Positions 3,001 through 59,653 of a stretch of 64,000 nt of DNA are shown here, one piece after another (within the stretch, counting starts at the first letter, position 1; each line of letters starts with the position of its first letter). Position numbers and translations under genes: made by a program. This stretch comes from a virus (taxonomy: Duplodnaviria > Caudoviricetes): IMG/VR virus record IMGVR_UViG_3300042878_000198, positions 952 to 64,951 of that record; one strand, given 5' to 3'. The notes under the pieces are model-generated. The model was not told the DNA's origin. It was given only the letters and a program-made list of their open reading frames with translations, and ran no database searches.

Positions 3001-6000
3001 CTTGAGTGCTCTAACAGTAAGGCTAGTGGCTTGATTAAGCGTAATCTTACCATCTGTACCCATCTGCTTAATCTCATCTGCCAAGAATTTATTTGCCTCA
3101 GCTATAGACTTCTTAGCTGCAACCGCACCTTCAGCAAGTTCTTTGATTCGCTTTTTAAGAACCTGTGTTTCAGTCATGGTTATCTTAGTGATATCCTTTA
3201 GCTGACCAAGTATTCTCTTTGCGGTTGGTGCTGACTTTTGTCTTAGGCCAAGCATCTTACGGACATCACGTACTAGCTTTTCTTTCTGTACGTCAGTGGC
3301 TTCTGTGTATGTTTTTGAGTTCTTGAGCTTGCTTATTACTTCTTTGGAGTCAACACCATTTATAATAAGGTTCTCAATTCTTCCCATCAAAGAATCATAA
3401 CCACTAATTGTCTCTTCAGACAATGTTATTCTTCCTGCAGCAGGGACATCTTTTGCCATCGCTTTCTTGATGTCAGCCTTAGATACACCCTTTCCTTCAA
3501 GGAATGATTTTATTACCTCCTCAGAAAATCCCTGAGCTCTTGCTTGTTGTACTACCTTCTTTGCTTTGGCCTCAGTATTTAGTTGTGACTTTGATACAGG
3601 AAATTCTTTCTTGATATTCTTAACATCCTCTTGAAGCATCAAAGGAAAGTTGTCAAACATAATTTGGTCTTCTCTTGAGAATCCTTCTGTCTCAGAAAGC
3701 AGAGTTTTTCTTCTCTGCTCTGGAGTCATCTTTGCTCTTATCTCAACATTTTTAGCCTCAACTTCACCCGATACTCTTCGATAAAGATTATACCCATCTG
3801 CTTTTTTATTTAATTTTTTAAATATATCTGCTAATATTTTCTCATCTACTTTACCACCCTTTTCCTCTATTCTATAAGTTGCCTCTTTACGTATGTATTC
3901 TTTTTCTGCCGTAGTAAACTTTTCCTTTGAAAGCTCAACCATTCTTTTGTAAGTAGCCAATACGCTCTTATAAGAATCGGTCAATTTATTTAGGTCCTCT
4001 TTTACTATAGGTGATACATATTTTTTATATAACTTAATATCTTCTTTTGTTTTATCTACTAAATTTTTAGAGATATTTACAATTACTTTCATCATTGCTT
4101 CAGCATACTTAGGGTTTGAGCCCGTCTCAAATACCTCTATATTCTGAATGTAATGCTGAATTTCATGAAGCATTGTCATCTCTGCTTCATTTTTATTTTT
4201 ATTATAAAGGTCTAAGCTTATATTTATTTTATTTTGAGAAGGAATATATTCTCCTAAATCTTCATCATCAAGCTTCTTAAATTGAACGGTTATTTTTTTA
4301 GCGTCAGGATATGCAGCGAATAAATCAGGAGCAGAAAATATATCCCCCAATATAGCTACTCTAGATTCAGCATCATTATTTTGAATATCTAATTGTTTTT
4401 TTAAATCATTAAGGTCAATGTCCTTGAACTTACCATCGGGTATTTCATATCTCCATTTACCTTCTTTTCCCTTTTCCCATCCTGTAGAGTTTCTAATAAT
4501 CTGAGGACTGATTTTATTATCATCCATAGCCTCAGCTTCAATTAATTTTCTCTTAACTGTAGCAGATAGATTAGCATTCTTGCCAATCAATTGAGCCTTT
4601 GATATTGGCATCTCTTTCTCTATAGGCTCATTAAATTCTGCAACTTTAGGAATAGAACCTGCACTTGATGACACATTCTTTTTCTCAAAATTAGGTTCAT
4701 CAGCCTTTCTTGAAACCTCTTCACCTGACTTGTTATATTTAACATAATTGTCAGTTACATTGCTTGAATTATAAAATTGAGTAGGCTGATATATGCCATT
4801 TATTTTAGCTAAAATAGACCACCCAAATGATGGGTGATGGTCTAGTGCGCCTGCTTTTGTTTGAACTATCTGAAATGTTTTGGGGTCAAATTCAACAACA
4901 TTAATTATCTCCCCCCCCTTAACACCATCATTAAGAGGGTCCATTATTCTATTAAAGAACTCCTCTTTATTTTTTATACCTATAGCTTTCTGAAACGTCT
5001 TGTCTGCAGATATAGCATTGTTTAGAGCCTTCCTTAAGTTGGGTGAGTAATTATTTTTAATATCTAGCAGGTCGACTATCTGCTTAGGATTATCCTTGAA
5101 GGAATCAAAGTTAGATATATCTTTACCTGCCTTGGTTTTAAATGCATCAAAAGCCTTTTTGTTATCCTTGTTAGAGCTAATTGTTTTATTAAAAACATCA
5201 ATCAATTCAGAGTCACTCATTATTTTTTTATCTATAATCAAGTTCACAAGTTCTGCAAACGTATGCTGCTGAAATTGCCAAGATTCAGATAATGTTCCTG
5301 AGTGTGGCGCAAACAATGACGCTTGCCCTTGTATTGCATTACGTGCAAAGGATTCCGCTTGTGCCTTATTATTGAATGCGGCTAGATTAGAAACATCGCC
5401 TATCTTCTTGTCCTGTAGAGACATCATGTATGGAACATAGTTCTTGCCGCCAAGCATATTTATAGTAAACCCATTTCCCAAGTCGGTTACACCCGCATTG
5501 GTATAGTCATACATATTCGTGACAAACTTTTTTCCGCTAAAATCTCTTATGTCAACGTCCTGAACTAAGTCTTTTATAAACGACCTACTATCATTTGCTA
5601 CACTAGGAGCATCCTTTACATCTACCCTGCTTTTTGAACCAAAGTTAAATGTACCTACCTCTCCTCCTCCGTTTAACTCTATGTCCTCTCCTTGACGAAT
5701 TGAACTAGATATGCTGTTAAAGAAATCAACCAACTGCTTGGTGTCCTTGATATCTTGGAAAGGCTTAAATGTTCCATTGGTTAATTTTGAAACCACATCA
5801 TTTATAATAGCCGCAATTTTTTGAAACGTATTGACAGATAAAGTAGCTTCCTGTTGCTCTAAAACTGCCGTTAACTCTGCAAGGTATTCTTCGTAAGAAG
5901 CATCTTCATTATAGTTCTCAGAAAATTCCATCAACATATTGTTGGAACTTTCATTTAAAACCTTAGATATCCTGTCTCTAAATGACTTGTATAGTTCAGG

Positions 6001-20965: not shown

Positions 20966-21003
20966 TAAAAAAAGAGAGTGTCCCTAAAGACACCCTCCCT
21001 TTA
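20966..21003 (-). terminator. Rho-independent terminator after the major capsid gene
   Basis: Minus strand GGGAGGGTGTC-loop-GACACTCTC followed by T7. Confidence 0.75.
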
Positions 21004-21010
21004 TTTATTA

Positions 21011-22429
21011 TCAACCGAATCTGAACAATACGAAGTTGTTTGCACCAAGGGTACATACACAACGCTCAGATAGGAAGTTAACCTCCATTGCATCAAGGTC
21101 GCTCGTAGCGGCACCACCGGCAGAACCTGTAATCCAAGTCTTGTAACGTCTGTCTTCAGCTTCAGAAGCTCTGTAACGTACGTGCAAGAATGGACGCTTA
21201 GCGTTCTTACCCATGATTTGGTCATACACTGAAGTAGAACCTGCAGGAACCAACAAACCAGTGATGGTCCCTGTTGCAGTAGCAGCAGCAGAAGCCAAAC
21301 CACCCCGCATAGTTGGGTCGTTCAAGTACTTCCAGTCAGACTTGTAGAAGTCATAACCTCTACGGAATCCTGTGAATCCAAGGTTTAACGCCATGTCAAC
21401 ATCATTGTCAAATAGACCATAAGATGCAGCACCTGCAGCACTACCTCCATTGTATCCATTCAAGGTAGCCAACATATTGTCGATGTCGAAGCTAAGACCA
21501 CGGTTAACAAATACTACGTTCTCTTCGATAGCACCTTGCTTGTCAAGACGAGAAACGATAGTATCCCAATCAGGAAGAGTAGTTGGAGTTCCACCACCCC
21601 ATACGTTACCTCTTGCGTTAACAACGTAGAAGATACCTTCAGAACCCATCATTCCAGCAACTTTAGCACCTGAAGCGGTAGCAGCAGGAACAGCTTCAAT
21701 CATTGCAGTCTCAAGATAATCTTCGAAACGAAGACGAGTCTCGTGCTCAGATTTCAAATACCAAAGATATCCAGTTGCTCCGTTCTCAGTAGTAACTTCA
21801 ATCCAACCGATTTGAGCCATGTCAGAACCGTTAACCGCATACTTATCTTTGATGATAATAGGGTTGTTAGAATAGATGTCATCCTCAGATTCCAAAGAGC
21901 CAACCATTCCAGTAGTACCTTTCTTAAACTCAGAACCGTAAATGAATACAGTACAAGCAGTAGATACAGCGAAAGCTTGACCTGCAGCCTCATAGTAAGC
22001 AACTGTAAAAGTAGTTGCAGAAGGAACAGCAGTAACGATTGCCTTGTTGAACACCCCTGAAGAGTTGTTCTGAATCATTAAAGTTTGTCCAACACGAATT
22101 GCGATATAAGTAACACCTGAGTCAGCAACTGTAAAGGTAGCTGTATTAGAAGCAGCAGCAGCAGCTGAAGTACAAGAGGTATACTTAATGTGTAGACGAC
22201 CTTGTTCTGCCCACTTAATCTGGTCAGAGTTAGAAGGCATCTCAGCTCCAACCATTCTTAGGAAGGAAGCGATGGTTCTATTACCATAACGCTCAAATTC
22301 TTTCTCGTAGGTATCAGGTAGATACTGGTTCAAGAAATCGAAGTTGGTAATGTAGTTTGTTTGCAACGCCACTTGCTCAGCACTCGGCTGTAGAGCGAAG
22401 GTGGGGTTGTTTAATAATGCACTTGCCAT
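21011..22429 (-). CDS. Major capsid protein (472 aa)
   Basis: Follows portal and scaffold; WAEQGRLH, SEHETRLRFEDYLE and GFRRGYDFYKSDWKYLND motifs; high-expression codon bias; own terminator. Confidence 0.85.
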   Translation of the reverse strand: MASALLNNPTFALQPSAEQVALQTNYITNFDFLNQYLPDTYEKEFERYGNRTIASFLRMVGAEMPSNSDQIKWAEQGRLHIKYTSCTSAAAAASNTATFTVADSGVTYIAIRVGQTLMIQNNSSGVFNKAIVTAVPSATTFTVAYYEAAGQAFAVSTACTVFIYGSEFKKGTTGMVGSLESEDDIYSNNPIIIKDKYAVNGSDMAQIGWIEVTTENGATGYLWYLKSEHETRLRFEDYLETAMIEAVPAATASGAKVAGMMGSEGIFYVVNARGNVWGGGTPTTLPDWDTIVSRLDKQGAIEENVVFVNRGLSFDIDNMLATLNGYNGGSAAGAASYGLFDNDVDMALNLGFTGFRRGYDFYKSDWKYLNDPTMRGGLASAAATATGTITGLLVPAGSTSVYDQIMGKNAKRPFLHVRYRASEAEDRRYKTWITGSAGGAATSDLDAMEVNFLSERCVCTLGANNFVLFRFG

Positions 22430-47554: not shown

Positions 47555-47610
47555 TTGATTTGATTTTATCTTTACACTTAACCTATACCATCCCTTGGGG
47601 TGGCATAGGG

Positions 47611-47618
47611 CAAATATA
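47611..47618 (-). promoter_or_regulatory. Bacteroidota -7 promoter box for groEL; equivalent minus-strand boxes at 11779, 20132, 23562, 39861, 42755, 44436 and 48334
   Basis: TAnnTTTG (TATATTTG, TATCTTTG, TAAGTTTG, TACATTTG), each just upstream of a gene start. Confidence 0.7.
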
Positions 47619-47625
47619 AGTATGA

Positions 47626-47896
47626 ATGTCGATTTTACAAGCCCATGTCGGTTTTATGCAGGTAATTCCAGACTAATGTCGATTAAGATGTTGATAAACA
47701 ACACGTTGTCAATAATGTCAGTTTATTTTCCCTACTTTCTCTATATATATATTCCTCCTTTATATTTTTTTTCCCCTTATATTTTCTCTTAAAATTCGAC
47801 ATTTTCGACATTAAAGAAATAAAGTATTAATAATCAATAAGTTAAGAAAAAAAAATCGACATAAAAATCGACATAAAACCATGTCAATAATGTCGG
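47626..47896. repeat. Iteron array A (ATGTC(G/A) left, TCGACAT right) around an AT-rich core; origin-like
   Basis: ATGTC-like units at 47626, 47645, 47676, 47688, 47706 and 47715; core TTCTCTATATATATA 47737-47751; TCGACAT at 47796, 47805, 47856 and 47868. Confidence 0.7.
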
Positions 47897-47971
47897 TTTC
47901 AACCGTAGACAGATTGTCTACAGTATATTGGGCATATTGTAGACTATCTATTGGGCAGTATACAGACCAGT

Positions 47972-48008
47972 AAAAAGAAAAGGGTGACCAATATGGACAC
48001 CCCTTTCT
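47972..48008 (-). terminator. Terminator hairpin after the 48077-48307 gene
   Basis: AGAAAAGGGTG...CACCCCTTTCT inverted repeat with a T-tract on the minus strand. Confidence 0.55.
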
Positions 48009-48076
48009 GGTACAAACACCCAAAACACTATGTGAATATCGGCAATTTATTTCAAAATTGCCATAATATAGTAGAC

Positions 48077-48307
48077 TTAATATTCTCCTTCCATCATGTC
48101 TTCTCTCATGTTGCCCATGGATACACCAGCAGCAATCACGTCAATCTTATCCATTCTCTTCATGGCCTTCTTGGCCACAGCAGCCTGAGCAATGCCAGAC
48201 ATACTATCAGGCCTGTTGTTAATCAGTCTGCCCCCTTGGACATCTAGTCCTTTGCCAATCATCATCTTGCTGGCATAAATCGAGTTACTCAATTTCAATC
48301 CTTTCAT
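48077..48307 (-). CDS. Hypothetical Met-rich protein (76 aa)
   Basis: ATG 48307 (MKGLKLSNS...GRLINNRPD); -7 box at 48334-48341. Confidence 0.65.
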   Translation of the reverse strand: MKGLKLSNSIYASKMMIGKGLDVQGGRLINNRPDSMSGIAQAAVAKKAMKRMDKIDVIAAGVSMGNMREDMMEGEY

Positions 48308-48659
48308 AATTATTTTTTTTAGTTGCAACTTCCCAAAGATAATAACTTTTAGATTAACAAAACTCTCACAAATACCAACCTATAGGTTGTCACAATTTTT
48401 TATAAACCCGTGACAAATTGGAACGCCTTGTTCGGATTAATTCCGATAAGGTTAAAGATATTTTACAAAAAGTATGATAATGTGCAATATATCGCACATT
48501 AGAAGCGTGTTCACGTAACATGAACGAGAGTCAAAAATGAACACGAGATAAATGTGGCCAAAACCTATTTTAATATTGACTTTTGGCAAGTTATAAAATA
48601 TCAGATAATTAGAGTGTGGGGGCTATATAGCAGTTTGACGCAGCGAGCTTGCTGCAGGA

Positions 48660-48850
48660 AACGACTTTTTTTTGATGGGGTGGGGGTCGGATTTGGTCGG
48701 CCCCTGTCCGATTTTTTGGCGTTTTGCCTAGCCTCTGGATAGCCCCGGGGCAGGGCCCGAGGCTCCCCCGGGGCTCCATGGCCCGAAGGCCCGAAGGCCC
48801 TAGCTACCTGCCTGCCTGCCTGCTTGCGCCATGGGGAGCACACGCCATGG
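48660..48850. other. GC-rich non-coding island at the strand switch; candidate genome terminus/packaging region
   Basis: Abrupt high GC with GGGGTGGGGG, (GGCCCGAA)x2 and (CCTG)x4 between the divergent arms. The functional call is inference. Confidence 0.4.
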
Positions 48851-48970
48851 AGAGTACAGGAGAGACAACAAGAGGGGTCTCTTTATACGTGCCTATTCCT
48901 TGTCACGCTAAAACTTCGTGCCCTAATAGTTGTCACGCTAACTAATTGACTATAAAAAAATTACAGGGAT

Positions 48971-49036
48971 ATTTAAAAAAAATTTAAAAATATTTTACAA
49001 AATGCTTGCATATGTACTAGTAATGTGCTAGAATTG
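48971..49036 (+). promoter_or_regulatory. Strong early host-RNAP promoter
   Basis: A/T-tract UP-like region, CTTG (49005-49008), 20-nt spacer, TAGAATTG (49029-49036); fits the Bacteroidota -33/-7 consensus with mismatches. Confidence 0.6.
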
Positions 49037-49147
49037 TACATGCATTCAGCGACAGACCCAAACGGGGCCCTAGCGTGCACGGGTGTTCGGCACTCTCCCG
49101 CGTGTAGTTACGTAGGGCAACCGACAGCTCCAAAGAGGGAGCATATA

Positions 49148-49189
49148 TAGGGCGTGCTGGCTTATATGGGTTCGATTCCCAACGCCCTG
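49148..49189 (+). ncRNA. tRNA top-half mimic (acceptor stem plus T-arm)
   Basis: AGGGCGT/ACGCCCT stem, 11-nt linker, TGGG-TTCGATT-CCCA. Confidence 0.6.
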
Positions 49190-49225
49190 CTATTCAATCA
49201 ATAATCAATCAAAACCCCTAAAAAC

Positions 49226-49495
49226 ATGGAAAATGTATCTTTTGCTTACCTAGAATCAATTGGAAAATCTAAAATTTGGCAAGCCTATGCCGACAACTTC
49301 GCAGGCGAGGAAATCATGCAAGAAGGCTTCAATCCAAATTCTGGCTATGTATACATAGCTTTAGAAAATGGGATTTCGATTTGCAGTTTATTAGGTGGGA
49401 ACGTGGAATTTCTAGTTTCAGAACATGAGAACGGTGAGGAACTATTTTTTGATAGTTACCAAGAGCTAGAAAAATACCTTAATCCAGAAGATTAA
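49226..49495 (+). CDS. Early acidic hypothetical protein (89 aa)
   Basis: First ORF after the early promoter (GFNPNSGYVYIALENG). Confidence 0.75.
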   Translation: MENVSFAYLESIGKSKIWQAYADNFAGEEIMQEGFNPNSGYVYIALENGISICSLLGGNVEFLVSEHENGEELFFDSYQELEKYLNPED

Positions 49496-49499
49496 TAAA

Positions 49500-49604
49500 A
49501 TGCGAAAAGCTACTAAAGTACTCGGACAAATTATTTACACCATTCTAGCACTTAGCCCAATTTTATTTTTGGGCTACTTGCTAGGATTAAAAATACTTAA
49601 CTAA
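49500..49604 (+). CDS. Small single-TM protein (34 aa)
   Basis: Manual translation MRKATKVLGQIIYTILALSPILFLGYLLGLKILN. Confidence 0.55.
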   Translation: MRKATKVLGQIIYTILALSPILFLGYLLGLKILN

Positions 49605-49626
49605 ACCCCCAACCCCCCCCCAGAAA

Positions 49627-49845
49627 ATGGAAAATTTTATTAACACCGTTCTAATTATTGAGAAGTATTTTAAGCCCTCAATAGGCGCTTATACCTGTGC
49701 CTGTATGGCCATGGAGTTGGCACCATATTACGAAAAATTAGCCCTCCTAGAAGTCAATAATCCTAGCCTAGTACATGAAACAATTCTACACGATTACGAG
49801 GGGCTGAGAAGTGACAACGACTATTTTATTCCAAGACTAGCATAA
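49627..49845 (+). CDS. Early hypothetical protein (72 aa)
   Basis: ORF track. Confidence 0.65.
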   Translation: MENFINTVLIIEKYFKPSIGAYTCACMAMELAPYYEKLALLEVNNPSLVHETILHDYEGLRSDNDYFIPRLA

Positions 49846-49852
49846 AAAAATA

Positions 49853-49893
49853 CTCCCGCCACTAAGGGCGTGGCCTTCGATGGCAAGCGGGAG
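49853..49893 (+). ncRNA. Second tRNA top-half-like element
   Basis: CTCCCGC/GCGGGAG stem, 11-nt linker, (TG)GCC-TTCGAT-GGC(AA). Confidence 0.45.
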
Positions 49894-49929
49894 CAAACAA
49901 TTTTAATTTCTAACCAAAACACACACACC

Positions 49930-50460
49930 ATGAAAACTCGTTTCAGTTCAAATTCAGCTCTTGCCCAAGCATGGGCGACCCAAAGCCAACCCGAAGGTAA
50001 GGGTAATTCGATGTTTTTTGTCAATGAGAACGTATACTCCTACGGCTACCACTATGTGGCGGGCACTATTCTAGAAGCCAAGGATGGCCAAAAGGTTGCC
50101 ATCATCAATGGCACGCCCAATAGCATTACCACGGCCAAGCATGTGGGTGAAGTAATGTCGGCTTCAATTAAGATATACCACACCTTCAAAATCCCATTTG
50201 GCCGTTCATTTAGTGTAGACAAGTTGCCAGCCATCTTGGAAGTGATGACCAAGGATGTGGAGAAGTTGTCCGAGAAGCAATTGCGAGCACGTACATCAAC
50301 GCATAACTTCTACATGGCCTTGCACAAGGTGGATGACATTAAAGAGTTAAGCAGGCTCTTTGACCTGCCAGTGCCCAATACGTCAAGTTTTAAATACTTT
50401 GGTGAGGCATCTGCAAATGCATTTAATAAGCGTGCCAAAAGGTTAACTGACGAGTCCTAA
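49930..50460 (+). CDS. Early hypothetical protein (176 aa, YSYGYHY motif)
   Basis: ATG 49930 follows an AACCAAAACACACAC leader; the upstream GTG start in the track lies inside an RNA element. Confidence 0.75.
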   Translation: MKTRFSSNSALAQAWATQSQPEGKGNSMFFVNENVYSYGYHYVAGTILEAKDGQKVAIINGTPNSITTAKHVGEVMSASIKIYHTFKIPFGRSFSVDKLPAILEVMTKDVEKLSEKQLRARTSTHNFYMALHKVDDIKELSRLFDLPVPNTSSFKYFGEASANAFNKRAKRLTDES

Positions 50461-50492
50461 TTGGACGAAAGCCCCCTCGGGGGTTCTTAACC
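50441..50492 (+). ncRNA. Hammerhead ribozyme, type I; predicted cleavage after C50486 (UUC)
   Basis: Stem I GGTTAA/TTAACC, CTGACGA, stem II GTCC-TAATT-GGAC, GAAA, stem III GCCCC-CTCG-GGGGT, then TC. Confidence 0.9.
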
Positions 50493-50508
50493 AAAACACA
50501 CACACACT

Positions 50509-50721
50509 ATGGGAAGATTTATCACCGCCAGATTCAAAAGCGCTTGCGCTGAGACAGGCAAAACAATCAACAAAGGCGAGTCCATCTACTTTGATGGCAA
50601 GGCCTATTGCGTGGATTCTAAGGCCTACAGGGACAGAAAAGAGGCCAACCAGACCTTTGCCCACATCAAGGCAAATGAGGACGCTTACTATGACAATTTC
50701 TGTATTCAAAACAACATCTAA
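50509..50721 (+). CDS. Early Cys-containing protein (70 aa)
   Basis: ARFKSACAETGKTINKGE.I motif. Confidence 0.7.
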   Translation: MGRFITARFKSACAETGKTINKGESIYFDGKAYCVDSKAYRDRKEANQTFAHIKANEDAYYDNFCIQNNI

Positions 50722-50738
50722 CCAAACCCCTTTTAACT

Positions 50739-50933
50739 ATGTTTTACCAAATCAATTTCGAAAAGAGACGTGAGTTAATCCAAGACGTAATCGACCGCTT
50801 GACCCGTCTAAATGCCGAGCAAGGTGCTCAATATCTGCAGGAGTTAGAAAGCTTGCACGACAGGTTCAACCTAAATTTAAAAACGAACGCCATGGGTGTC
50901 CGACACTATCCAATTAACCAAAATCTAAAATAA
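50739..50933 (+). CDS. Hypothetical protein (64 aa)
   Basis: ORF track. Confidence 0.6.
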   Translation: MFYQINFEKRRELIQDVIDRLTRLNAEQGAQYLQELESLHDRFNLNLKTNAMGVRHYPINQNLK

Positions 50934-50934
50934 G

Positions 50935-51120
50935 ATGACCGACCTATTTGAAACAATGGAAGAACTACCTGAGCGAGTTCAAAAAATCCTGTGGGAATAT
51001 GCTTGGGAGGAAAAAAGCTATGAGGCGTGTGAGAGAATGTTAATCGACCTAGAAGCCGAGGGCTACACGTTTGAGTTTGGCCTAGATGCCGAGCCGTTTA
51101 ATCTAACTAAAATGGACTAA
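50935..51120 (+). CDS. Acidic hypothetical protein (61 aa)
   Basis: GYTFEFGLDAEPFNL motif. Confidence 0.7.
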   Translation: MTDLFETMEELPERVQKILWEYAWEEKSYEACERMLIDLEAEGYTFEFGLDAEPFNLTKMD

Positions 51121-51124
51121 GCAG

Positions 51125-51286
51125 GTGGAAAAGAAAATTTATTTCAGCGTCTGGATAAGCAAGGAATTGATTTGGGAGGGCTTAGCGTCCTCCTCATTTG
51201 AGGCAATTGACAGGGCGTACTCAAAATACGCCCACCTTGAGCCCCCTATAAATCGGTCCCAATTGTACGCAAAAGTAAAAAAATAA
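51125..51286 (+). CDS. Possible hypothetical protein (53 aa, GTG start)
   Basis: Manual translation MEKKIYFSVWISKELIWEG...; fills the gap. Confidence 0.4.
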   Translation: MEKKIYFSVWISKELIWEGLASSSFEAIDRAYSKYAHLEPPINRSQLYAKVKK

Positions 51287-51295
51287 AGCATTGCG

Positions 51296-51327
51296 CTTGG
51301 ATAAGTTCATATCTGGCACTATGTTCG
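51296..51327 (+). promoter_or_regulatory. Second early promoter candidate
   Basis: CTTG, 20-nt spacer, TATGTTCG (near TAnnTTTG). Confidence 0.45.
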
Positions 51328-51366
51328 CTTATAATTAGTTCAACATCCAATAAATCAAACAAAATC

Positions 51367-51567
51367 ATGGAAATCAAAATTATTGACGGCTTCGTCTGGT
51401 TAATCGTAACCCGACAGGCAAAAGAAGTATTCGAGTCAAACCTATTCGAGTTGTATGCAGTCTATGAAGATGGCTCTGAAGGGTTAATTTTCGACCTTGA
51501 AAGTCTAGAAAAGTGCATTGCAAACGGCACTAATATTGGTATCGAAGGAGGATTCATCAACACTTAA
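51367..51567 (+). CDS. Hypothetical protein (66 aa)
   Basis: ORF track. Confidence 0.7.
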   Translation: MEIKIIDGFVWLIVTRQAKEVFESNLFELYAVYEDGSEGLIFDLESLEKCIANGTNIGIEGGFINT

Positions 51568-51571
51568 AACT

Positions 51572-51805
51572 ATGTACGCATACAAAATCAACACCACGCC
51601 ATACAGCGAGGAGGGCTTCTTGCTTATTACAGACTTGACAGGACCAGAGGTCGAGGATGTAATTTATCCCATCGTACTAGCCGAGCGGGAGCAGGGCATA
51701 GACTATACCAACGAGCAGTTGGTTAAGGAGCTCAAGAAGAAATATCCAAAGAGTTCTATCAAGGCTTACTATTCGTCTCAAGACTTTATGGAGCTATCTT
51801 TCTAA
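51572..51805 (+). CDS. Hypothetical protein (77 aa), paralog of 52561-52785
   Basis: INTT..EE.F.L.T.LT...I.PIV..ER....YTN..LV..L...YP is shared. Confidence 0.7.
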   Translation: MYAYKINTTPYSEEGFLLITDLTGPEVEDVIYPIVLAEREQGIDYTNEQLVKELKKKYPKSSIKAYYSSQDFMELSF

Positions 51806-51837
51806 ATTACGGGAGGGGTGTCTTCAAAGACACTCCC

Positions 51838-51890
51838 TTCAGTCCATGGGTGTGTGCCCATGCTGATGAGACTAAAAAGTCGAAACTGAA
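51838..51890 (+). ncRNA. Hammerhead ribozyme, type III; predicted cleavage after C51844 (GUC)
   Basis: Stem III TTCAG/CTGAA, TC, stem I CATGGG-TGTGTG-CCCATG, CTGATGA, stem II GACT-AAAA-AGTC, GAAA. Confidence 0.93.
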
Positions 51891-51912
51891 ACCAAAATAA
51901 ACCATTTAACAC

Positions 51913-52152
51913 ATGAACAAACAAACAAAAGCAACCCATTGGGTACTCGCATACGGAAGGGATTGCGATGGCTACAATTCAGGACACATTTATGCATTCG
52001 ACAACGAGAAGGATGCCAATGATTGCGAGCGTGAATCGAACTATTCTTCTGATGGCCTAAGGTATTTTGCCACTAGCGTCTGGTCGGATGTCGAGGAGTA
52101 CTGCGATGATTACAACAAGGACTCATCAAGATACAAAACCATTACAACATGA
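51913..52152 (+). CDS. Hypothetical protein (79 aa, GRDCDG motif)
   Basis: ORF track. Confidence 0.7.
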   Translation: MNKQTKATHWVLAYGRDCDGYNSGHIYAFDNEKDANDCERESNYSSDGLRYFATSVWSDVEEYCDDYNKDSSRYKTITT

Positions 52153-52424
52153 AAAAAGAAATCAATTTCGACCACGATGCCAAGTCCCTAGTGGATGCGC
52201 TTGGCATTGAACCGCACGCATTTGCAACCCAGCTGGCAGCCGTGATGGCTATCTACGAGGCCAATGACGAAAACAAAGTGAGTAAACTTAGCCATCTGGT
52301 GCACTCATGCATTGACTACAAAATTATTTTGTTGATGGCCACTACCCAACTGGTTGGTGTTGTTGAGCGCTTCAACAACTCAAATGACATGGATGACTTG
52401 TTTAACACCCTATCAAAAAACTAG
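52149..52424 (+). CDS. Hypothetical protein (91 aa)
   Basis: ORF track; ATGA overlap. Confidence 0.7.
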   Translation: MKKEINFDHDAKSLVDALGIEPHAFATQLAAVMAIYEANDENKVSKLSHLVHSCIDYKIILLMATTQLVGVVERFNNSNDMDDLFNTLSKN

Positions 52425-56549: not shown

Positions 56550-56657
56550 AGTCAGGTGGCGGAATTGGTAACGCACATATAACTAGAGTCCTGCAGGCTC
56601 GACCATAAAGATAATTATATGGTGGTATAAATACAGGTTCGAATCCTGTCCTGACTA
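56550..56657 (+). ncRNA. tRNA-like RNA with an expanded, non-decoding anticodon arm
   Basis: Acceptor AGTCAGG/CCTGACT+A, D-arm TGGCGGAATTGGTAACGC, T-arm ACAGG-TTCGAAT-CCTGT; anticodon stem CATATAA/TTATATG encloses 32 nt. Confidence 0.75.
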
Positions 56658-56731
56658 CAACTAACATTCACTTAGCCTCAGAGGTAGGTGTTGGTTCAAA
56701 TAGACTGAGGCATACAAAAACAATTTACACA

Positions 56732-57043: not shown

Positions 57044-57072
57044 AAGGGGGAGACAATCTCTCCCTTTTTTTT
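57044..57072 (+). terminator. Rho-independent terminator
   Basis: AGGGGGAGA-CAA-TCTCTCCCT followed by T-tract. Confidence 0.8.
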
Positions 57073-57083
57073 GGCCTTTGTGC

Positions 57084-57251
57084 CTGACGAAAATGTCAAC
57101 ACGAAACCCCCATATTCTCTATATATATAATTTCTATTCTTTTATTTTTTTTTAATTAAAATTTAAGAAGAAAATTGACATTATTGACAGTAGTTTGATT
57201 ACCAGTAACTTACACGACATAAAATCGACACCCATTCAACATTTATGACAC
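57084..57251. repeat. Iteron array B around an AT-rich core, directly upstream of the primase-helicase
   Basis: ATGTCA 57093; TTCTCTATATATATA 57115-57129; TTGACA 57175 and 57184; ACGACAT 57214; TCGACA 57225. Confidence 0.7.
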
Positions 57252-59653
57252 AAGAAATAACCATATTTAAAAGTATCAAGGATACTGACACTCCGTTCCA
57301 CAGGGACGTGAGGATAATCCTTAATAGAATCAAGGATGGCACTGAGGCCACTAGGGACTTGGTTAAGCGCATTCGCTCAGAGAAGCGCAAGCCCGAGAGA
57401 CAGGAACTGAAGAAGCTACTGCCAGCAATATGCTTCAGTGGTACATTCAACAAGAGAACAGACGCATCCCTGATGCAGCACTCAGGTTTGATTTGCTTAG
57501 ACTTCGATGGATATACTAAATCCAAGGACTTGCTACAGGACAAGGAGACCTTATCCAAGAACAAGTACGTGTTTTCGGTGTTTGTCTCACCCTCTGGCAA
57601 TGGCCTAAAGGTATTGGTAAAGATTCCACAAGACGCTGATAACCACACCAATTACTTCAATAGCTTAGAGAAATACTTTAACAGCACATACTTTGATAAG
57701 ACCAGCAAGAACATCTCTCGTGTATGCTATGAGTCTTACGACCCACTCCTGCACATCAACGAGAACAGCAGCATCTGGGACTTGATTGAGGAGCCTGAGT
57801 ATACCGAGGTAAGCAAGACAAGAGACCATCCTACGATTCCAATCACGGATGAGAATAAGATTGTGGACATACTCATTAAGTGGTGGACAAAGAAGTATCC
57901 AATGAGTGAAGGACAGCGCAATCAGAACTGCTACGTTCTATCCATGGCATTCAATGACTTCGGCATCAACAAGGGTCTTGCATCCTATGTACTAAATCAA
58001 TACGCCTCTCAGGACTTCTCAACCAGTGAGATTAATCAAACTATTGACTCAGCATACAAGAACACCGCAAACTTCGGGACCAAGTACTACGAGGACGAGG
58101 AGCGGATAAATAACATCAGGGCCAAGCTCAGACGTGGTGTGTCAAAAAAAGAGATTCGCATCCAACTGCAGGACTCCCACTTGGAGAGCGATATCATCGA
58201 ATCAGTACTCAATAAGGTAGAAGAAGAGAACGCTAAGCAAACTTTCTGGGACAGAAACGATAAGGGAGTAGTAAAGATAATTCATATTCAGTTCAAGCAG
58301 TTCCTTGAGGACAATGGCTTCTATAAGTTCTGCCCTGAGGGAGGAAAGAACTACGTGTTTGTCAAGGTCACCAACAACTTGATTGACCATACATCTGACA
58401 AAGAGATTAAGGACTTCGTGCTGAACCACCTGCTGGAGCTGGATGACATTGGCGTATACAATTACTTTGCGGACCAAACTAGATTCTTCAAGGAGGAGTT
58501 CCTCTCTTTGCTGTCCACGATTGAGATTCACTTTATTGCAGATACCAAGGACGCATCATACCTGTACTACAAGAACTGCGCTGTAAGGATTACAAAGGAT
58601 GGAGTTACACTATTGGACTACATTGACCTTGGTGGGTACGTCTGGAAGGACCACGTGATTGACAGGACCTTTGTCAAGTGTAGCGTGTCTGAGTCGTTTG
58701 ATTTCAAAAAGTTTGTCAGCAACATCAATGGTGGTGACGAGGGAAGGATTCAATCTATGGAAAGTACGATGGGCTTCATGCTTCACGCATACAAGAACCT
58801 TGGCTTCTGTCCTGCAGTGATACTAAACGATGAGGTAATCAGCGACAACCCTGAGGGAGGCACAGGAAAGGGATTGATTATGAATGCCCTGAGCAAGATG
58901 AAGAAGCTAGTGGTGATTGATGGTAAGTCATTTGCTTTCGAGCGTAGCTTCGCCTATCAGCTCGTGTCAGCAGACACCCAGATACTATGCTTCGATGATG
59001 TGAGAAAGCACTTTGACTTTGAGAGGCTATTCAGTGTCATTACTGAGGGATTAACCTTAGAGAAGAAGAACAAGGATGCCATCAAGATTCCGTTCGCTAA
59101 GTCTCCAAAGGTTGCCCTGACAACTAACTATGCTATCAAGGGGGCAGGTAACTCATTCGCAAGACGTAAGTGGGAGCTGGAGCTACACCAATACTACAGC
59201 AAGGACTTCACGCCACAGGATGAGTTTGGCAGACTTATGTTTGGTGACTGGAACGATGACGACTGGTGTGAGTTTGACAACTACATGATTGGATGCTTGA
59301 AATCCTACCTGAGGACAGGACTAGTGAAAAGCAAATTCGTTAACTTGAAAATACGTCAGCTGTCTGCAGAGTCATGCCATGAGTTTATTGAGTGGTGTGG
59401 ATTGGTTGATAGTGCTGAGCGAAATGTGATGCTACAGGTTGACACTAGGCTGTACAAGAACGAGCTGTACTCAAACTTCGTGGAGGAGTACCCTGACTAT
59501 GGGCCTAGAGGAAGGATGAGCATCAGTAGGACTAAGTTCTACAAGTGGTTAATTGCTTACGCAATTTACAAGGAAGGGACGATGCCTGAGGAGGACAGAG
59601 ACCAACAAGGACGATGGATAATTATTAAAAGCAAAAAAGAAGATGAAGACTAA
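57245..59653 (+). CDS. Primase-helicase (BT4734/VirE-N primase-like N-terminus, PriCT, P-loop helicase, C-terminal wHTH)
   Basis: HSGLICLDFD, FVSPSGNGLK, EGQRN, Walker A EGGTGKG, Walker B LCFDD and TTNY. Confidence 0.85.
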   Translation: MTQEITIFKSIKDTDTPFHRDVRIILNRIKDGTEATRDLVKRIRSEKRKPERQELKKLLPAICFSGTFNKRTDASLMQHSGLICLDFDGYTKSKDLLQDKETLSKNKYVFSVFVSPSGNGLKVLVKIPQDADNHTNYFNSLEKYFNSTYFDKTSKNISRVCYESYDPLLHINENSSIWDLIEEPEYTEVSKTRDHPTIPITDENKIVDILIKWWTKKYPMSEGQRNQNCYVLSMAFNDFGINKGLASYVLNQYASQDFSTSEINQTIDSAYKNTANFGTKYYEDEERINNIRAKLRRGVSKKEIRIQLQDSHLESDIIESVLNKVEEENAKQTFWDRNDKGVVKIIHIQFKQFLEDNGFYKFCPEGGKNYVFVKVTNNLIDHTSDKEIKDFVLNHLLELDDIGVYNYFADQTRFFKEEFLSLLSTIEIHFIADTKDASYLYYKNCAVRITKDGVTLLDYIDLGGYVWKDHVIDRTFVKCSVSESFDFKKFVSNINGGDEGRIQSMESTMGFMLHAYKNLGFCPAVILNDEVISDNPEGGTGKGLIMNALSKMKKLVVIDGKSFAFERSFAYQLVSADTQILCFDDVRKHFDFERLFSVITEGLTLEKKNKDAIKIPFAKSPKVALTTNYAIKGAGNSFARRKWELELHQYYSKDFTPQDEFGRLMFGDWNDDDWCEFDNYMIGCLKSYLRTGLVKSKFVNLKIRQLSAESCHEFIEWCGLVDSAERNVMLQVDTRLYKNELYSNFVEEYPDYGPRGRMSISRTKFYKWLIAYAIYKEGTMPEEDRDQQGRWIIIKSKKEDED

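What the first reader, a model, noticed from the sequence alone, without database searches (positions are those of the whole stretch)
49148..51890. Early transcript punctuated by RNA cleavage devices: two hammerheads and two tRNA-elbow mimics, each just before a start codon
Seen: four intergenic RNA elements on the sense strand, each ending 16-36 nt before an ATG and followed by an A/C-rich leader. They are the minihelix 49148-49189, the minihelix 49853-49893, a type I hammerhead 50441-50492 and a type III hammerhead 51838-51890. Established: hammerheads self-cleave to leave 5'-OH and 2',3'-cyclic phosphate ends, and acceptor-plus-T-arm minihelices are RNase P/RNase Z substrates. Inference: this is an interchangeable RNA toolkit that cuts the early polycistron into units with defined, possibly nuclease-resistant ends, analogous to the T7 RNase III sites. 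Hammerheads alone are known in phages. The mixed, slot-equivalent use with tRNA mimics is the potentially undescribed part.
Basis: partly seen in the sequence, partly recalled or inferred. Interest (0 to 1): 0.85.

Follow-up and report, generated by a model that had tools for sequence, protein, structure and literature searches.

The report
Ribozyme and mini-tRNA punctuated phage operon
The early genes of this uncultured Bacteroidota-type phage are separated by two genuine self-cutting hammerhead RNAs and at least one stripped-down tRNA look-alike, which probably cut one long message into stable pieces. The ribozyme habit is already known, the mini-tRNA partner is not described, and no cutting has been shown.

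Summary
Both hammerheads are canonical. My descriptor finds exactly these two in the window, against 0.07 per shuffled window. A covariance model finds 52 type III copies in 22 of 81 related sources, all on the sense strand.

Minihelix 49148-49189 has true tRNA top-half geometry. Such acceptor-plus-T-arm elements run 55:1 sense to antisense in relatives. Minihelix 49853-49893 is a conserved three-way junction with two homologues, but it fails tRNA geometry.

The processing reading is supported only by comparison:
- 44 of 52 type III hammerheads directly follow a strong hairpin. The same hairpin motif precedes 12 tRNA-likes, typically by 4 nt.
- With a U-tract, that motif is the capsid-gene terminator.
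- A few gene families carry a hammerhead in one genome and a tRNA-like, or the other hammerhead type, in another.

No RNA ends could be examined. Clustered phage hammerheads have been known since 2011, and tRNA-like processing signals are known from plant mitochondria. I found no paper on their mixed use in phages. This scan's earlier notes report the same pattern in at least six other phage genomes.

The parts
49127..49142 (+). Hairpin 5 nt upstream of minihelix 1. It would become the 3'-terminal structure of the leader fragment if RNase P cuts at 49147/49148.
   Evidence: RNAfold of the 40 nt upstream gives -11.4 kcal/mol, and the hairpin ends 5 nt before the element.
49148..49189 (+). Minihelix 1, a 42-nt tRNA top-half mimic. 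It has a 7-bp acceptor stem, an 11-nt spacer containing GG, and a T arm with a TTCGATT loop. The discriminator is C49190 and no CCA is encoded. It lies in the leader of gene 49226-49495.
   Evidence: descriptor: 13 hits on + and 0 on - across 1.45 Mb, shuffles mean 1.6. GG in the spacer is invariant in 6 of 6 aligned minihelices; same-architecture elements with unrelated stem sequences occur in L006, L031, L038, L070 and L074.
49853..49893 (+). 'Minihelix 2', a conserved 41-nt three-way junction. A 7-bp closing stem encloses hairpin 1 and a 3-bp hairpin with a TTCGAT loop. Its tRNA likeness is doubtful.
   Evidence: Fold (z -1.9). blastn homologues in L006 (77% over 84 nt) and L047. Compensatory changes in the closing stem and the TTCGAT hairpin are visible. 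No Rfam hit at E<=10.
50441..50492 (+). Type I hammerhead with predicted cleavage 50486/50487. The stop codon of gene 49930-50460 (50458-50460) lies in loop II, so the ribozyme overlaps the last 20 nt of that gene.
   Evidence: Compact type I relatives in L022, L044 and L070. Variants in L003 and L005 sit before the same gene family as window 50509.
51811..51837 (+). Terminator-type hairpin without a U-tract (core GTGTC..GACAC). It lies between the stop of gene 51572-51805 and the type III hammerhead, which it abuts.
   Evidence: 44 of 52 type III hammerheads have such an abutting hairpin, and 35 of 52 have this motif. Background is 203 of 2362 for the hairpin and 23 of 2362 for the motif.
51838..51890 (+). 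Type III hammerhead with predicted cleavage 51844/51845, 22 nt before ATG 51913.
56550..56656 (+). It is a tRNA-like RNA with acceptor stem, Leu-type D arm and T arm, but a roughly 50-nt non-canonical middle. Discriminator A56657 follows it.
   Evidence: Rfam tRNA 46 bits over 56550-56657, with a 50-nt insert in the anticodon region. ARAGORN finds none in standard mode. Of the strand-biased acceptor-plus-T-arm elements in relatives, 37 carry this acceptor stem (32 upstream of the primase), at 1-4 copies per genome. 10 of those 37 are preceded by the same hairpin motif.
20966..21003 (-). Intrinsic terminator after the major structural gene 21011-22429. It uses the same hairpin core followed by a U-tract. 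I list it as the likely prototype of the early-arm hairpins.

Best explanation
The four elements are cis-acting punctuation marks of a long early transcript.

Shown here:
- Both hammerheads have complete catalytic cores.
- They belong to families that are conserved, covarying and strictly sense-strand in related phages.
- Minihelix 1 belongs to a strand-specific family of acceptor-plus-T-arm RNAs.
- Both kinds sit between a stop codon, often followed by a hairpin, and a short G-poor leader with an ATG.

Inferred:
1. The hammerheads self-cleave during transcription. The type III ribozyme cuts near its own 5' side. The upstream mRNA then ends in the terminator-like hairpin plus about 6 nt with a 2',3'-cyclic phosphate. 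The downstream mRNA starts with a 5'-OH and the folded ribozyme body.
2. The type I ribozyme cuts near its own 3' side, so the ribozyme itself becomes the 3' structure of the upstream mRNA. That would explain why type I copies lack the extra hairpin.
3. Host RNase P cuts at the 5' side of the tRNA-likes, typically 4 nt after the same hairpin, giving an equivalent upstream 3' end. RNase Z may trim their 3' side.

The net effect is transcription read-through with terminator-like mRNA ends, and gene blocks with separate stabilities and unstructured leaders. Minihelix 2 is probably a fifth kind of module whose cutter is unknown.
For: Hammerheads:
- Exactly 2 descriptor hits in the window, against 2 hits in 30 shuffles.
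- In 80 related loci the descriptor gives 40 hits on + and 1 on -. Of these, 35 type III and 3 type I are compact.
- Covariance model R1 gives 52 hits of at least 49.9 bits, all on +, in 22 of 81 sources. 16 of them were not in the training set.
- 13 of 17 pairs carry compensatory changes, and sliding the partners by 1-3 columns drops pairing from 94% to 33-43%.
- blastn alone finds the hairpin-plus-hammerhead cassette in 19 loci, up to 4 copies each.

Cassette anatomy:
- 44 of 52 type III copies have a strong abutting upstream hairpin, against 203 of 2362 background sites.
- Only 1 of 4 type I copies has one.
- The first ATG lies 15-51 nt after all 36 descriptor-found type III copies and 13-21 nt after the 4 type I copies.

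tRNA-likes:
- Strand counts are 55:1 (strict), 69:4 (relaxed) and 13:0 for minihelices, where shuffles average 1.6.
- GG in the spacer is invariant in 6 of 6.
- When the hairpin motif precedes a tRNA-like, the gap is 3-5 nt in 10 of 12 cases.

Swaps:
- The window-50509 gene family has type I in the window, L003 and L005, and type III in L007.
- The family holding window genes 51572 and 52561 has type I in L044 and type III in L010, L018 and L025.
- The window-51367 family has type III three times and a tRNA-like once.
- Downstream of window-51572 homologues there are 4 type III copies, 5 of element X, 1 tRNA-like and 27 with nothing.

Other:
- The same hairpin with a U-tract terminates the capsid gene.
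- The first strong terminator-like site on the + strand lies at 57044.
- Precedents, from passages read: PMC3088659 and PMC1920247.
Against: - No RNA-end data exist. No RNA run was listed.
- Rfam scores for both hammerheads are under the gathering thresholds (46.9 vs 48.5; 16.3 vs 34).
- The alignment used for covariation was selected by a descriptor that demands pairing, so 'per cent paired' is partly circular.
- 14 of the 16 model-only type III copies have U.U instead of G-C at 10.1/11.1. Perreault et al. used a mispair at this position as a rejection criterion, so some copies may be slow or dead.
- Only 15 of 37 class-A tRNA-likes and 7 of 17 short ones have an abutting hairpin.
- Direct hammerhead-to-tRNA-like swaps are few.
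- Most orthologous junctions (for example 27 of 37) carry no element, so the modules are dispensable.
- Minihelix 1 sits in the leader of the first gene, not between two cistrons.
- Minihelix 2 lacks tRNA geometry, and its homologues lack GG in hairpin 1.
- No CCA is encoded, and the host and its RNases are unknown.
- In Bacillus subtilis a 5'-OH end (the glmS product) is degraded by RNase J1 (recalled, not checked here), so a 5'-OH is not protective everywhere.
- The transcription unit is inferred, not mapped.
Confidence: 0.55

Rival explanations
1. The tRNA-like elements are not cut sites. They are tRNA-derived RNAs with their own job: decaying phage tRNA genes, decoys for host tRNA-targeting defence nucleases, or substrates for CCA-adding or aminoacylating enzymes. 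Their intergenic position only reflects where small genes fit. On this reading only the hammerheads process the mRNA.
For: - Class-A elements keep the acceptor stem, a Leu-type D arm, the T arm and discriminator A while the middle varies freely. That is what selection on tRNA identity elements, rather than on a cut site, would give.
- Some relatives carry true tRNAs in the same region, for example L042 tRNA-Met at 69 bits.
- Arrays of 3-4 copies occur in L003 and L043.
Against: - 40-42-nt minihelices have no anticodon domain at all.
- The 4-nt spacing after the same hairpin that precedes hammerheads, and the ATG 4-41 nt downstream in 19 of the 21 short elements listed, point to a role in the mRNA.
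- Any tRNA-shaped RNA inside a transcript is expected to be cut by RNase P whatever else it does. This is established for minihelix substrates and is recalled, not checked here.
Confidence: 0.2
2. The elements act by folding, not by being cut, at least the tRNA-likes and minihelix 2. They would be structural insulators that keep the following G-free leader unpaired for Shine-Dalgarno-independent initiation, or that block 5' or 3' exonucleases.
For: - Every element is followed by an unstructured, G-poor leader.
- Minihelix 2 has no recognisable nuclease signature.
- Many junctions, and 7 junctions of the GenBank relative MW202828.1, carry the hairpin alone.
Against: - The hammerhead cores are intact and conserved (the CTGA, GA and CGAAA columns are invariant in 36 of 36). 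That argues for catalysis rather than mere folding.
- The canonical T loop, stacking geometry and invariant GG of the minihelices are more than a generic insulator needs.
Confidence: 0.15
3. The conserved palindromic hairpin is a DNA or RNA site for a phage factor, such as a promoter or operator for a phage RNA polymerase. Each gene would then have its own start. The hammerhead or tRNA-like just downstream would trim the first nucleotides, removing the 5'-triphosphate, rather than splitting a polycistron.
For: - The motif is conserved at the sequence level and differs between genomes. One form recurs across many relatives, and another recurs 7 times in MW202828.1.
- No host-type TAnnTTTG promoter with a -33 element lies in the window's early intergenic regions.
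- The genome encodes giant virion proteins. In crAss-like phages such proteins include a virion RNA polymerase (recalled).
Against: - The outer extension of the hairpin covaries, and some cassettes use unrelated hairpins. That fits an RNA structure.
- The same hairpin with a U-tract stands at the 3' end of the capsid gene on the other strand, a terminator position.
- The hammerhead needs its 6-nt stem III strand, which starts 0-4 nt after the hairpin, so a start site would have to lie inside the hairpin.
Confidence: 0.08
4. The paired hammerheads at 50486/7 and 51844/5 release a 1358-nt RNA carrying about six genes, with 5'-OH and cyclic-phosphate ends. A host RtcB-type ligase would then circularise it.
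For: The end chemistry fits RtcB. Perreault et al. raised circular products as a possibility.
Against: Perreault et al. looked and found none. Relatives carry 1-4 hammerheads with no pairing rule.
Confidence: 0.02

Closest known systems
Clustered hammerhead ribozymes flanking genes in prophages and phages, and the HF1/HF2 halovirus hammerhead 13 nt before an early-gene start (Perreault et al. 2011, PMC3088659; passages read)
   Same: Several same-strand hammerheads lie between genes whose identities are not constant. Types I and III both occur. The paper proposes cutting of long phage transcripts into gene-length mRNAs. One example sits just upstream of an early start codon, with a mapped 5' end near the cut.
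   Different: - This is a Bacteroidota-type freshwater phage family with 52 type III copies in 22 of 81 sources.
- The cassette is fixed: stop codon, terminator-like hairpin, type III ribozyme, leader, ATG.
- tRNA-like elements share the same slots.
- One subgroup has U.U at 10.1/11.1.
Plant mitochondrial t-elements and tRNA punctuation of organellar transcripts (Forner et al. 2007, PMC1920247; abstract and passages read)
   Same: Non-canonical tRNA-like structures carry the GGTTCRANYCC T-arm motif, lie next to mRNA 5' or 3' ends, and are proposed (partly mapped) to direct RNase P/Z cuts. I used the same motif.
   Different: - The system there is organellar, not a bacterial virus.
- t-elements are cloverleaf-like. 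Here many are 40-42-nt top halves.
- Here they alternate with self-cleaving ribozymes and share an upstream hairpin.
- The ends are mapped there and not here.
Theta (HDV-like) ribozymes next to phage tRNAs (Kienbeck et al. 2024, PMC10879173; passages read)
   Same: Small self-cleaving ribozymes combined with tRNA-shaped RNAs in Caudoviricetes that infect Bacteroidota. A processing role is postulated.
   Different: Theta ribozymes are proposed to trim the 3' trailers of real (suppressor) tRNAs. Here the ribozymes are hammerheads that stand in place of tRNA-likes, not next to them, and the product of interest is mRNA. That paper does not mention hammerheads or tRNA-like elements (0 occurrences of either term).
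Engineered insulators and splitters: RiboJ (hammerhead plus hairpin) and polycistronic tRNA-spacer arrays; T7 RNase III sites
   Same: The logic is the same. A ribozyme or a tRNA placed between units gives defined ends independent of context, and a hairpin accompanies the ribozyme.
   Different: Those are synthetic devices or depend on RNase III. This is a natural family using both devices in one operon.

Membership tests
Hammerhead ribozyme, type III (Rfam RF00008) | Conserved core C3-U4-G5-A6-N7-G8-A9, G12-A13-A14, the A15.1-U16.1 pair, and a non-G at position 17 | tested here: met
   Window 51838-51890 has CTGATGA ... GAAA ... with the cut after GTC. The core columns are invariant in 36 of 36 aligned copies.
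Hammerhead ribozyme, type III (Rfam RF00008) | Three helices around the core, with stem III open and stems I and II capped, supported by covariation | tested here: met
   Stems are 7, 4 and 6 bp. 13 of 17 pairs carry compensatory changes, and slid controls fall to 33-43% paired. The sequences were chosen by a pairing descriptor. 16 further copies came from model R1.
Hammerhead ribozyme, type III (Rfam RF00008) | Score at or above Rfam's gathering threshold | tested here: not met
   46.9 bits against 48.5, with E 3.9e-7 for the whole window. The miss is marginal. The Rfam seed is dominated by plant-pathogen sequences (recalled).
Hammerhead ribozyme, type III (Rfam RF00008) | Self-cleavage giving 5'-OH and 2',3'-cyclic phosphate ends | not testable with these tools
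   No RNA run was listed.
Hammerhead ribozyme, type I (Rfam RF00163) | The same core, with stem I open and stems II and III capped | tested here: met
   Window 50441-50492 has CTGACGA, GAAA and the cut after TTC, with stems of 6, 4 and 6 bp. Relatives in L022, L044 and L070 have different stem II and III sequences.
Hammerhead ribozyme, type I (Rfam RF00163) | Score at or above Rfam's gathering threshold | tested here: not met
   RF00163 gives 16.3 bits against 34. RAGATH-1-hammerhead gives 30.2 against 56.3.
tRNA top-half minihelix / t-element (RNase P/Z substrate) | A 7-bp acceptor stem stacked directly on a 5-bp T stem, with a 7-nt T loop of the form TTCRANN | tested here: met
   Minihelix 1 (49148-49189) has 7 of 7 acceptor pairs (one U.G), 4 of 5 T-stem pairs, a TTCGATT loop, and no nucleotide between the T stem and the acceptor 3' strand.
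tRNA top-half minihelix / t-element (RNase P/Z substrate) | The same geometry in the second element (49853-49893) | tested here: not met
   The stem is 3 bp, the loop is 6 nt (TTCGAT), and 2 nt separate it from the closing stem. The descriptor does not find it.
tRNA top-half minihelix / t-element (RNase P/Z substrate) | D-loop-like GG available to pair with the T loop (the elbow) | tested here: inconclusive
   GG is invariant in the spacer of 6 of 6 aligned minihelices, including minihelix 1, and the descriptor did not require it. Tertiary pairing itself cannot be tested. The homologues of minihelix 2 lack GG in hairpin 1.
tRNA top-half minihelix / t-element (RNase P/Z substrate) | Cleavage by RNase P at position +1 and by RNase Z after the discriminator | not testable with these tools
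   No assay and no RNA data were available.
Canonical tRNA gene | Cloverleaf with an anticodon arm, called by tRNA finders | tested here: not met
   ARAGORN finds 0 genes in the window. The Rfam tRNA model hits only 56550-56657, with a 50-nt insert in place of the anticodon arm. Minihelix 1 gets only tRNA-Sec at 17.9 bits, E 4.8.

The most novel reading that the evidence does not exclude
This phage family runs a modular RNA punctuation system. A terminator-type hairpin without a U-tract is followed by any one of several interchangeable cutters: a type III hammerhead, a mini-tRNA or tRNA-like read by host RNase P, or the roughly 140-nt element X. A type I hammerhead supplies its own 3' structure. 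RNA polymerase reads through, yet each gene block still gets terminator-like ends.

That would be the first bacterial-virus counterpart of mitochondrial tRNA punctuation, used side by side with ribozymes. Element X would be a candidate new self-cleaving ribozyme class.
Probability: 0.35. Interest if true: 0.8.

Novelty: new variant of a known kind. Interest (0 to 1): 0.6.

Why it matters
The biological role of most bacterial and phage hammerheads is still open. The 2019 review PMC6765202 says so (passages read).

This family offers a concrete, testable model. Ribozyme cleavage next to a terminator-like hairpin would make stable mRNA 3' ends without stopping transcription. Host RNase P acting on mini-tRNAs would do the same job.

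If confirmed, three things follow:
- tRNA punctuation would extend from organelles to phages.
- It would explain why type III copies carry a hairpin and type I copies do not.
- It would supply natural, compact parts of about 40-55 nt for splitting operons in Bacteroidota, where Shine-Dalgarno-independent initiation makes leader structure critical.

Tried and rejected
- **Nearest DNA relatives.** blastn of 48900-52200 against GenBank phages gave no match. Relatives were reached through the primase protein instead.
- **RNA evidence.** No RNA holder was listed for 49000-52200.
- **ARAGORN intron mode** gave 13 implausible calls with kilobase introns. I discarded them.
- **First minihelix descriptor.** With 6 of 7 acceptor pairs and a spacer up to 75 nt it gave 26 hits per shuffled window. 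I replaced it with stricter ones.
- **A larger tRNA-like fold for 49112-49190.** Rfam tRNA-Sec gives 17.9 bits, E 4.8. It is not significant and I rejected it.
- **A core-like string at 57080-57110.** It has no stem II and is not a hammerhead (by eye).
- **Descriptor hits longer than 90 nt** (L007 type II, L019 type I, L061 minus strand). I dropped them as spurious before all counts.
- **Host-type promoters.** TAnnTTTG with a -33 TTTG is absent from the window's early intergenic regions, so the transcription unit stays inferred.
- **Element X.** It has no Rfam hit at E<=1 in L033 and L042. RNAalifold on 25 copies recovers only 10 pairs because of a variable insert, so the other helices were judged by eye.
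- **Alignments A3 and A4.** Their ends were shifted by my approximate coordinates, so I did not run pair counts on them.
- **attP or integration remnant for the T-arm motifs.** I rejected this because there are several copies per genome, each with its own 5' acceptor strand.
- **Literature.** Searches found no paper on mini-tRNAs alternating with hammerheads in phages.

Full report
**What the window is.** The window is bases 952-64951 of a 64,951-bp IMG/VR virus record rated complete. Large genes on the minus strand (portal, terminase, structural protein, GroEL-like chaperonin) fill 1-47.5 kb. A plus-strand arm of small genes begins near 49.0 kb and runs into recombination and replication genes: Sak-like annealing protein, exonuclease, and primase/helicase at 57245-59653. 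Leaders lack Shine-Dalgarno sequences and are A/C-rich. The nearest named relatives by primase are phages of Flavobacterium, Cellulophaga, Polaribacter and similar hosts. A Bacteroidota host is therefore likely but not shown.

**The observation.** Rfam scores 51837-51891 as a type III hammerhead at 46.9 bits, just under the 48.5 gathering score, with E 3.9e-7 for the whole window. For 50441-50492 Rfam gives only weak hits: type I 16.3 bits and RAGATH-1 30.2 bits.

I wrote a descriptor for the three hammerhead topologies. It requires the CUGANGA core, GAAA, the A15.1-U16.1 pair, a non-G at position 17, and minimum stem lengths. Thirty shuffles of the window gave two hits in all.

Minihelix 1 (49148-49189) has a 7-bp acceptor stem, an 11-nt spacer, a T stem with 4 of 5 pairs, a TTCGATT loop, and correct stacking geometry. 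Minihelix 2 (49853-49893) folds as a 7-bp stem enclosing two small hairpins. Its TTCGAT loop sits on only 3 bp and is offset from the closing stem, so it is not an acceptor-plus-T-arm helix.

**Relatives.** The primase found more than 590 related stretches in IMG/VR, and 80 loci were fetched with up to 10 kb upstream. The descriptor finds 40 hammerheads on the primase strand of these loci and 1 on the other strand. After dropping three hits longer than 90 nt, 35 type III and 3 type I remain.

The 36 type III sequences, window included, align with invariant core columns. 13 of 17 pairs carry compensatory changes, and sliding the partners by 1-3 columns drops pairing from 94% to 33-43%. This set was chosen by a pairing rule, so the percentage paired is partly circular. 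The compensatory changes and the strand bias are not.

A covariance model built from the alignment finds 52 copies of at least 49.9 bits in 22 of 81 sources, all on the sense strand. Sixteen were not in the training set. Fourteen of those have U and U at positions 10.1 and 11.1, where the others have G-C. blastn alone also recovers the cassette in 19 loci, with up to four copies per genome.

Type I relatives with the same stem I word as the window occur in L022 and L070. A more distant one occurs in L044. Variants with a C.A mispair at 10.1/11.1 in L003 and L005 sit directly before homologues of window gene 50509.

**Cassette anatomy.** 44 of 52 type III copies are directly preceded by a strong hairpin (dG of -8 or lower, ending within 8 nt). 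In 35 of them its core is GTGTC-N4-8-GACAC. At 2362 control sites the figures are 203 and 23. The outer extension of this hairpin varies in sequence but keeps pairing, and some cassettes use unrelated hairpins, so the conserved feature is an RNA structure.

An ATG follows at 15-51 nt for all 36 descriptor-found type III copies. The longer leaders hold a second small hairpin. Type I copies lack the upstream hairpin (1 of 4).

In the window the same hairpin core followed by a run of U stands right after the major structural gene on the minus strand. That is a normal intrinsic-terminator position. The early-arm copy (51811-51837) has no U-tract.

My reading, which is inference, is as follows. The hairpin is a terminator stem stripped of its release signal, and the ribozyme supplies the 3' end instead. 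A type III hammerhead cuts near its 5' side, so the upstream RNA would end in the hairpin. A type I hammerhead cuts near its 3' side and stays on the upstream RNA, so it needs no extra hairpin.

**tRNA-like elements.** The T-arm word GGTTCRANNCC occurs 69 times on the sense strand of the loci and 7 times on the other. Requiring a perfect 7-bp acceptor stem that abuts the T stem gives 55 against 1. A relaxed version gives 69 against 4.

One class (37 copies; window copy 56550-56656) keeps an acceptor stem, a Leu-type D arm and a T arm around a middle of 38-130 nt that varies freely. Rfam calls the window copy tRNA at 46 bits with a 50-nt insert, and ARAGORN does not call it.

A second class is short. 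The minihelix descriptor (spacer 4-22 nt) gives 13 hits on the sense strand, 0 on the other, and a mean of 1.6 per strand in ten shuffles of the whole 1.45 Mb. Four of the 13 are sub-alignments of longer tRNA-likes.

Six elements of 40-42 nt (window, L006, L031, L038, L070, L074) share the architecture but not the stem sequences. All six have GG at the same place in the spacer, which the descriptor did not ask for. An ATG follows at 8-37 nt.

Minihelix 2 has two homologues, in L006 and L047, with compensatory changes in the closing stem and the TTCGAT hairpin. It is a real RNA, but its tRNA likeness is not supported.

**Are the slots equivalent?** Three lines of evidence bear on this.
- **Same hairpin.** The hairpin motif that precedes hammerheads also precedes 12 tRNA-likes, at 3-5 nt in 10 of them. 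The distance from the motif to the hammerhead cut is 6-13 nt in 37 of 40. Both would leave the hairpin a few nucleotides from a new 3' end.
- **Same genomes.** Both kinds occur together in many genomes. Of 49 sources with at least 6 kb upstream of the primase, 23 have a hammerhead, 30 have some tRNA-like, 16 have both, and 9 have neither.
- **Same junctions.** I clustered 2420 plus-strand ORF products. The family of window gene 50509 is preceded by type I in the window, L003 and L005, and by type III in L007. A family that holds window genes 51572 and 52561 is preceded by type I in L044 and type III in L010, L018 and L025. The family of window gene 51367 is preceded by type III three times and by a hairpin-plus-tRNA-like once. 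Downstream of homologues of window gene 51572 lie 4 type III copies, 5 of element X, 1 tRNA-like and 27 with nothing. One further family has 12 type III, 1 tRNA-like and 6 with nothing.

Swaps between hammerhead types are therefore clear, swaps between hammerhead and tRNA-like are few, and most junctions are empty.

**What is known.** Perreault et al. 2011 (PMC3088659, passages read) reported multiple hammerheads flanking genes in prophages. They showed cleavage of about 2-kb transcripts in vitro and proposed processing into gene-length mRNAs. They also noted a halovirus hammerhead 13 nt before an early start codon. A 2019 review (PMC6765202, passages read) still lists the purpose as open.

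Forner et al. 2007 (PMC1920247) showed tRNA-like t-elements at mapped mRNA ends in plant mitochondria, using the same T-arm motif. Theta ribozymes sit next to phage tRNAs (PMC10879173), but that paper does not mention hammerheads or tRNA-like elements.

My six searches found nothing on mini-tRNAs alternating with hammerheads in phages. This scan's own earlier notes describe the same pattern in at least six other phage genomes. Those are unchecked AI notes, not evidence, but they mean the pattern has been found before on other DNA.

**Limits.**
- No RNA run was listed, so no cut is shown.
- The transcription unit is inferred from gene orientation, from the first strong terminator-like site lying at 57044, and from the lack of host-type promoters between the genes.
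- The host is unknown.
- The U.U variants may be slow or inactive.

**Verdict.** The hammerhead half is already known, and the mini-tRNA half and the shared hairpin cassette appear undescribed.

Noticed in passing
Not in the window. L033 4841-4990, L058 3912-4050, L021 1544-1676, L027 4269-4415, L037 6564-6703, L069 5947-6080, L042 3359-3491, L032 228-344; also L083-L113: Element X is a structured RNA of about 140 nt with long invariant stretches and several covarying helices. It starts right after a stop codon and ends 3-4 nt before a tRNA-like or tRNA, or before a leader and ATG. It occupies the same slot (after homologues of window gene 51572) as the hairpin-plus-hammerhead cassette. It has no Rfam hit at E<=1. 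Its core word occurs in 31 IMG/VR contigs, in 27 distinct versions. It is a candidate new processing RNA or ribozyme.
   Followed up: partly
window 56550-56656; about 37 copies in related loci: A tRNA-like family with a fixed acceptor stem, a Leu-type D arm, a T arm and discriminator A. The middle is freely variable at 38-130 nt and there is no canonical anticodon loop. Copy number is 1-4 per genome (arrays in L003 and L043), and the family is often preceded by the same hairpin. Because the identity elements are kept without an anticodon, a decoy or LeuRS-related role cannot be excluded.
   Followed up: partly
L006 3868, L007 5980, L008 5547, L010 5147, L011 5357, L017 1159, L018 2121, L019 3788 and 6555, L025 5771, L027 3322, L035 4886, L038 2611 and 4418: A conserved subgroup of type III hammerheads has U and U at positions 10.1/11.1 instead of the G-C pair. 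They may be slower or regulated ribozymes.
   Followed up: no
L082 (GenBank MW202828.1), 1062-6170; many loci: The palindromic hairpin alone, followed by a G-poor leader of about 15-40 nt and an ATG, marks many early junctions. It occurs at 7 junctions in MW202828.1 with a genome-specific variant of the motif. That record annotates no RNA features there. Sequence-level conservation within genomes hints at a protein reader.
   Followed up: partly
for example L007 2173-2220 and 4023-4073, L013 1647-1689, L017 2574-2620, L025 2749-2792: Some cassettes carry a second small hairpin (GGAGG..CCTCC type) between the type III hammerhead and the ATG. This lengthens the leader to 43-51 nt.
   Followed up: no
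window 56657-56731, and the same place in 42 loci: A conserved long hairpin lies between the class-A tRNA-like and the ATG of gene 56732. It belongs to the largest cluster of similar intergenic gaps, 62 gaps in 42 loci.
   Followed up: no
window 47600-49040: A stretch of about 1.4 kb lies between the two divergent arms and holds only ORFs of 98 aa or less on either strand. It contains a direct 10-nt repeat at 48900 and 48930 and a sigma-70-like TTGCAT-N17-TAGAAT near 49006-49034 (by eye). No Bacteroidota-type promoter was found. The nature of the early promoter is open.
   Followed up: no
window 50441-50460: The type I hammerhead overlaps the last 20 nt of gene 49930-50460, with the stop codon in loop II. 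In L022 and L070 the upstream ORF ends in stem I. A terminating ribosome could delay folding, so cleavage might be coupled to translation.
   Followed up: no
L011 7570-7623, L017 7254-7306 and 17 other loci; L013 6727-6795 and 10 other loci: Two further conserved intergenic families in relatives contain TAnnTTTG words, which resemble the Bacteroidota -7 promoter element. The early and middle arm of relatives may therefore hold internal host-type promoters.
   Followed up: no
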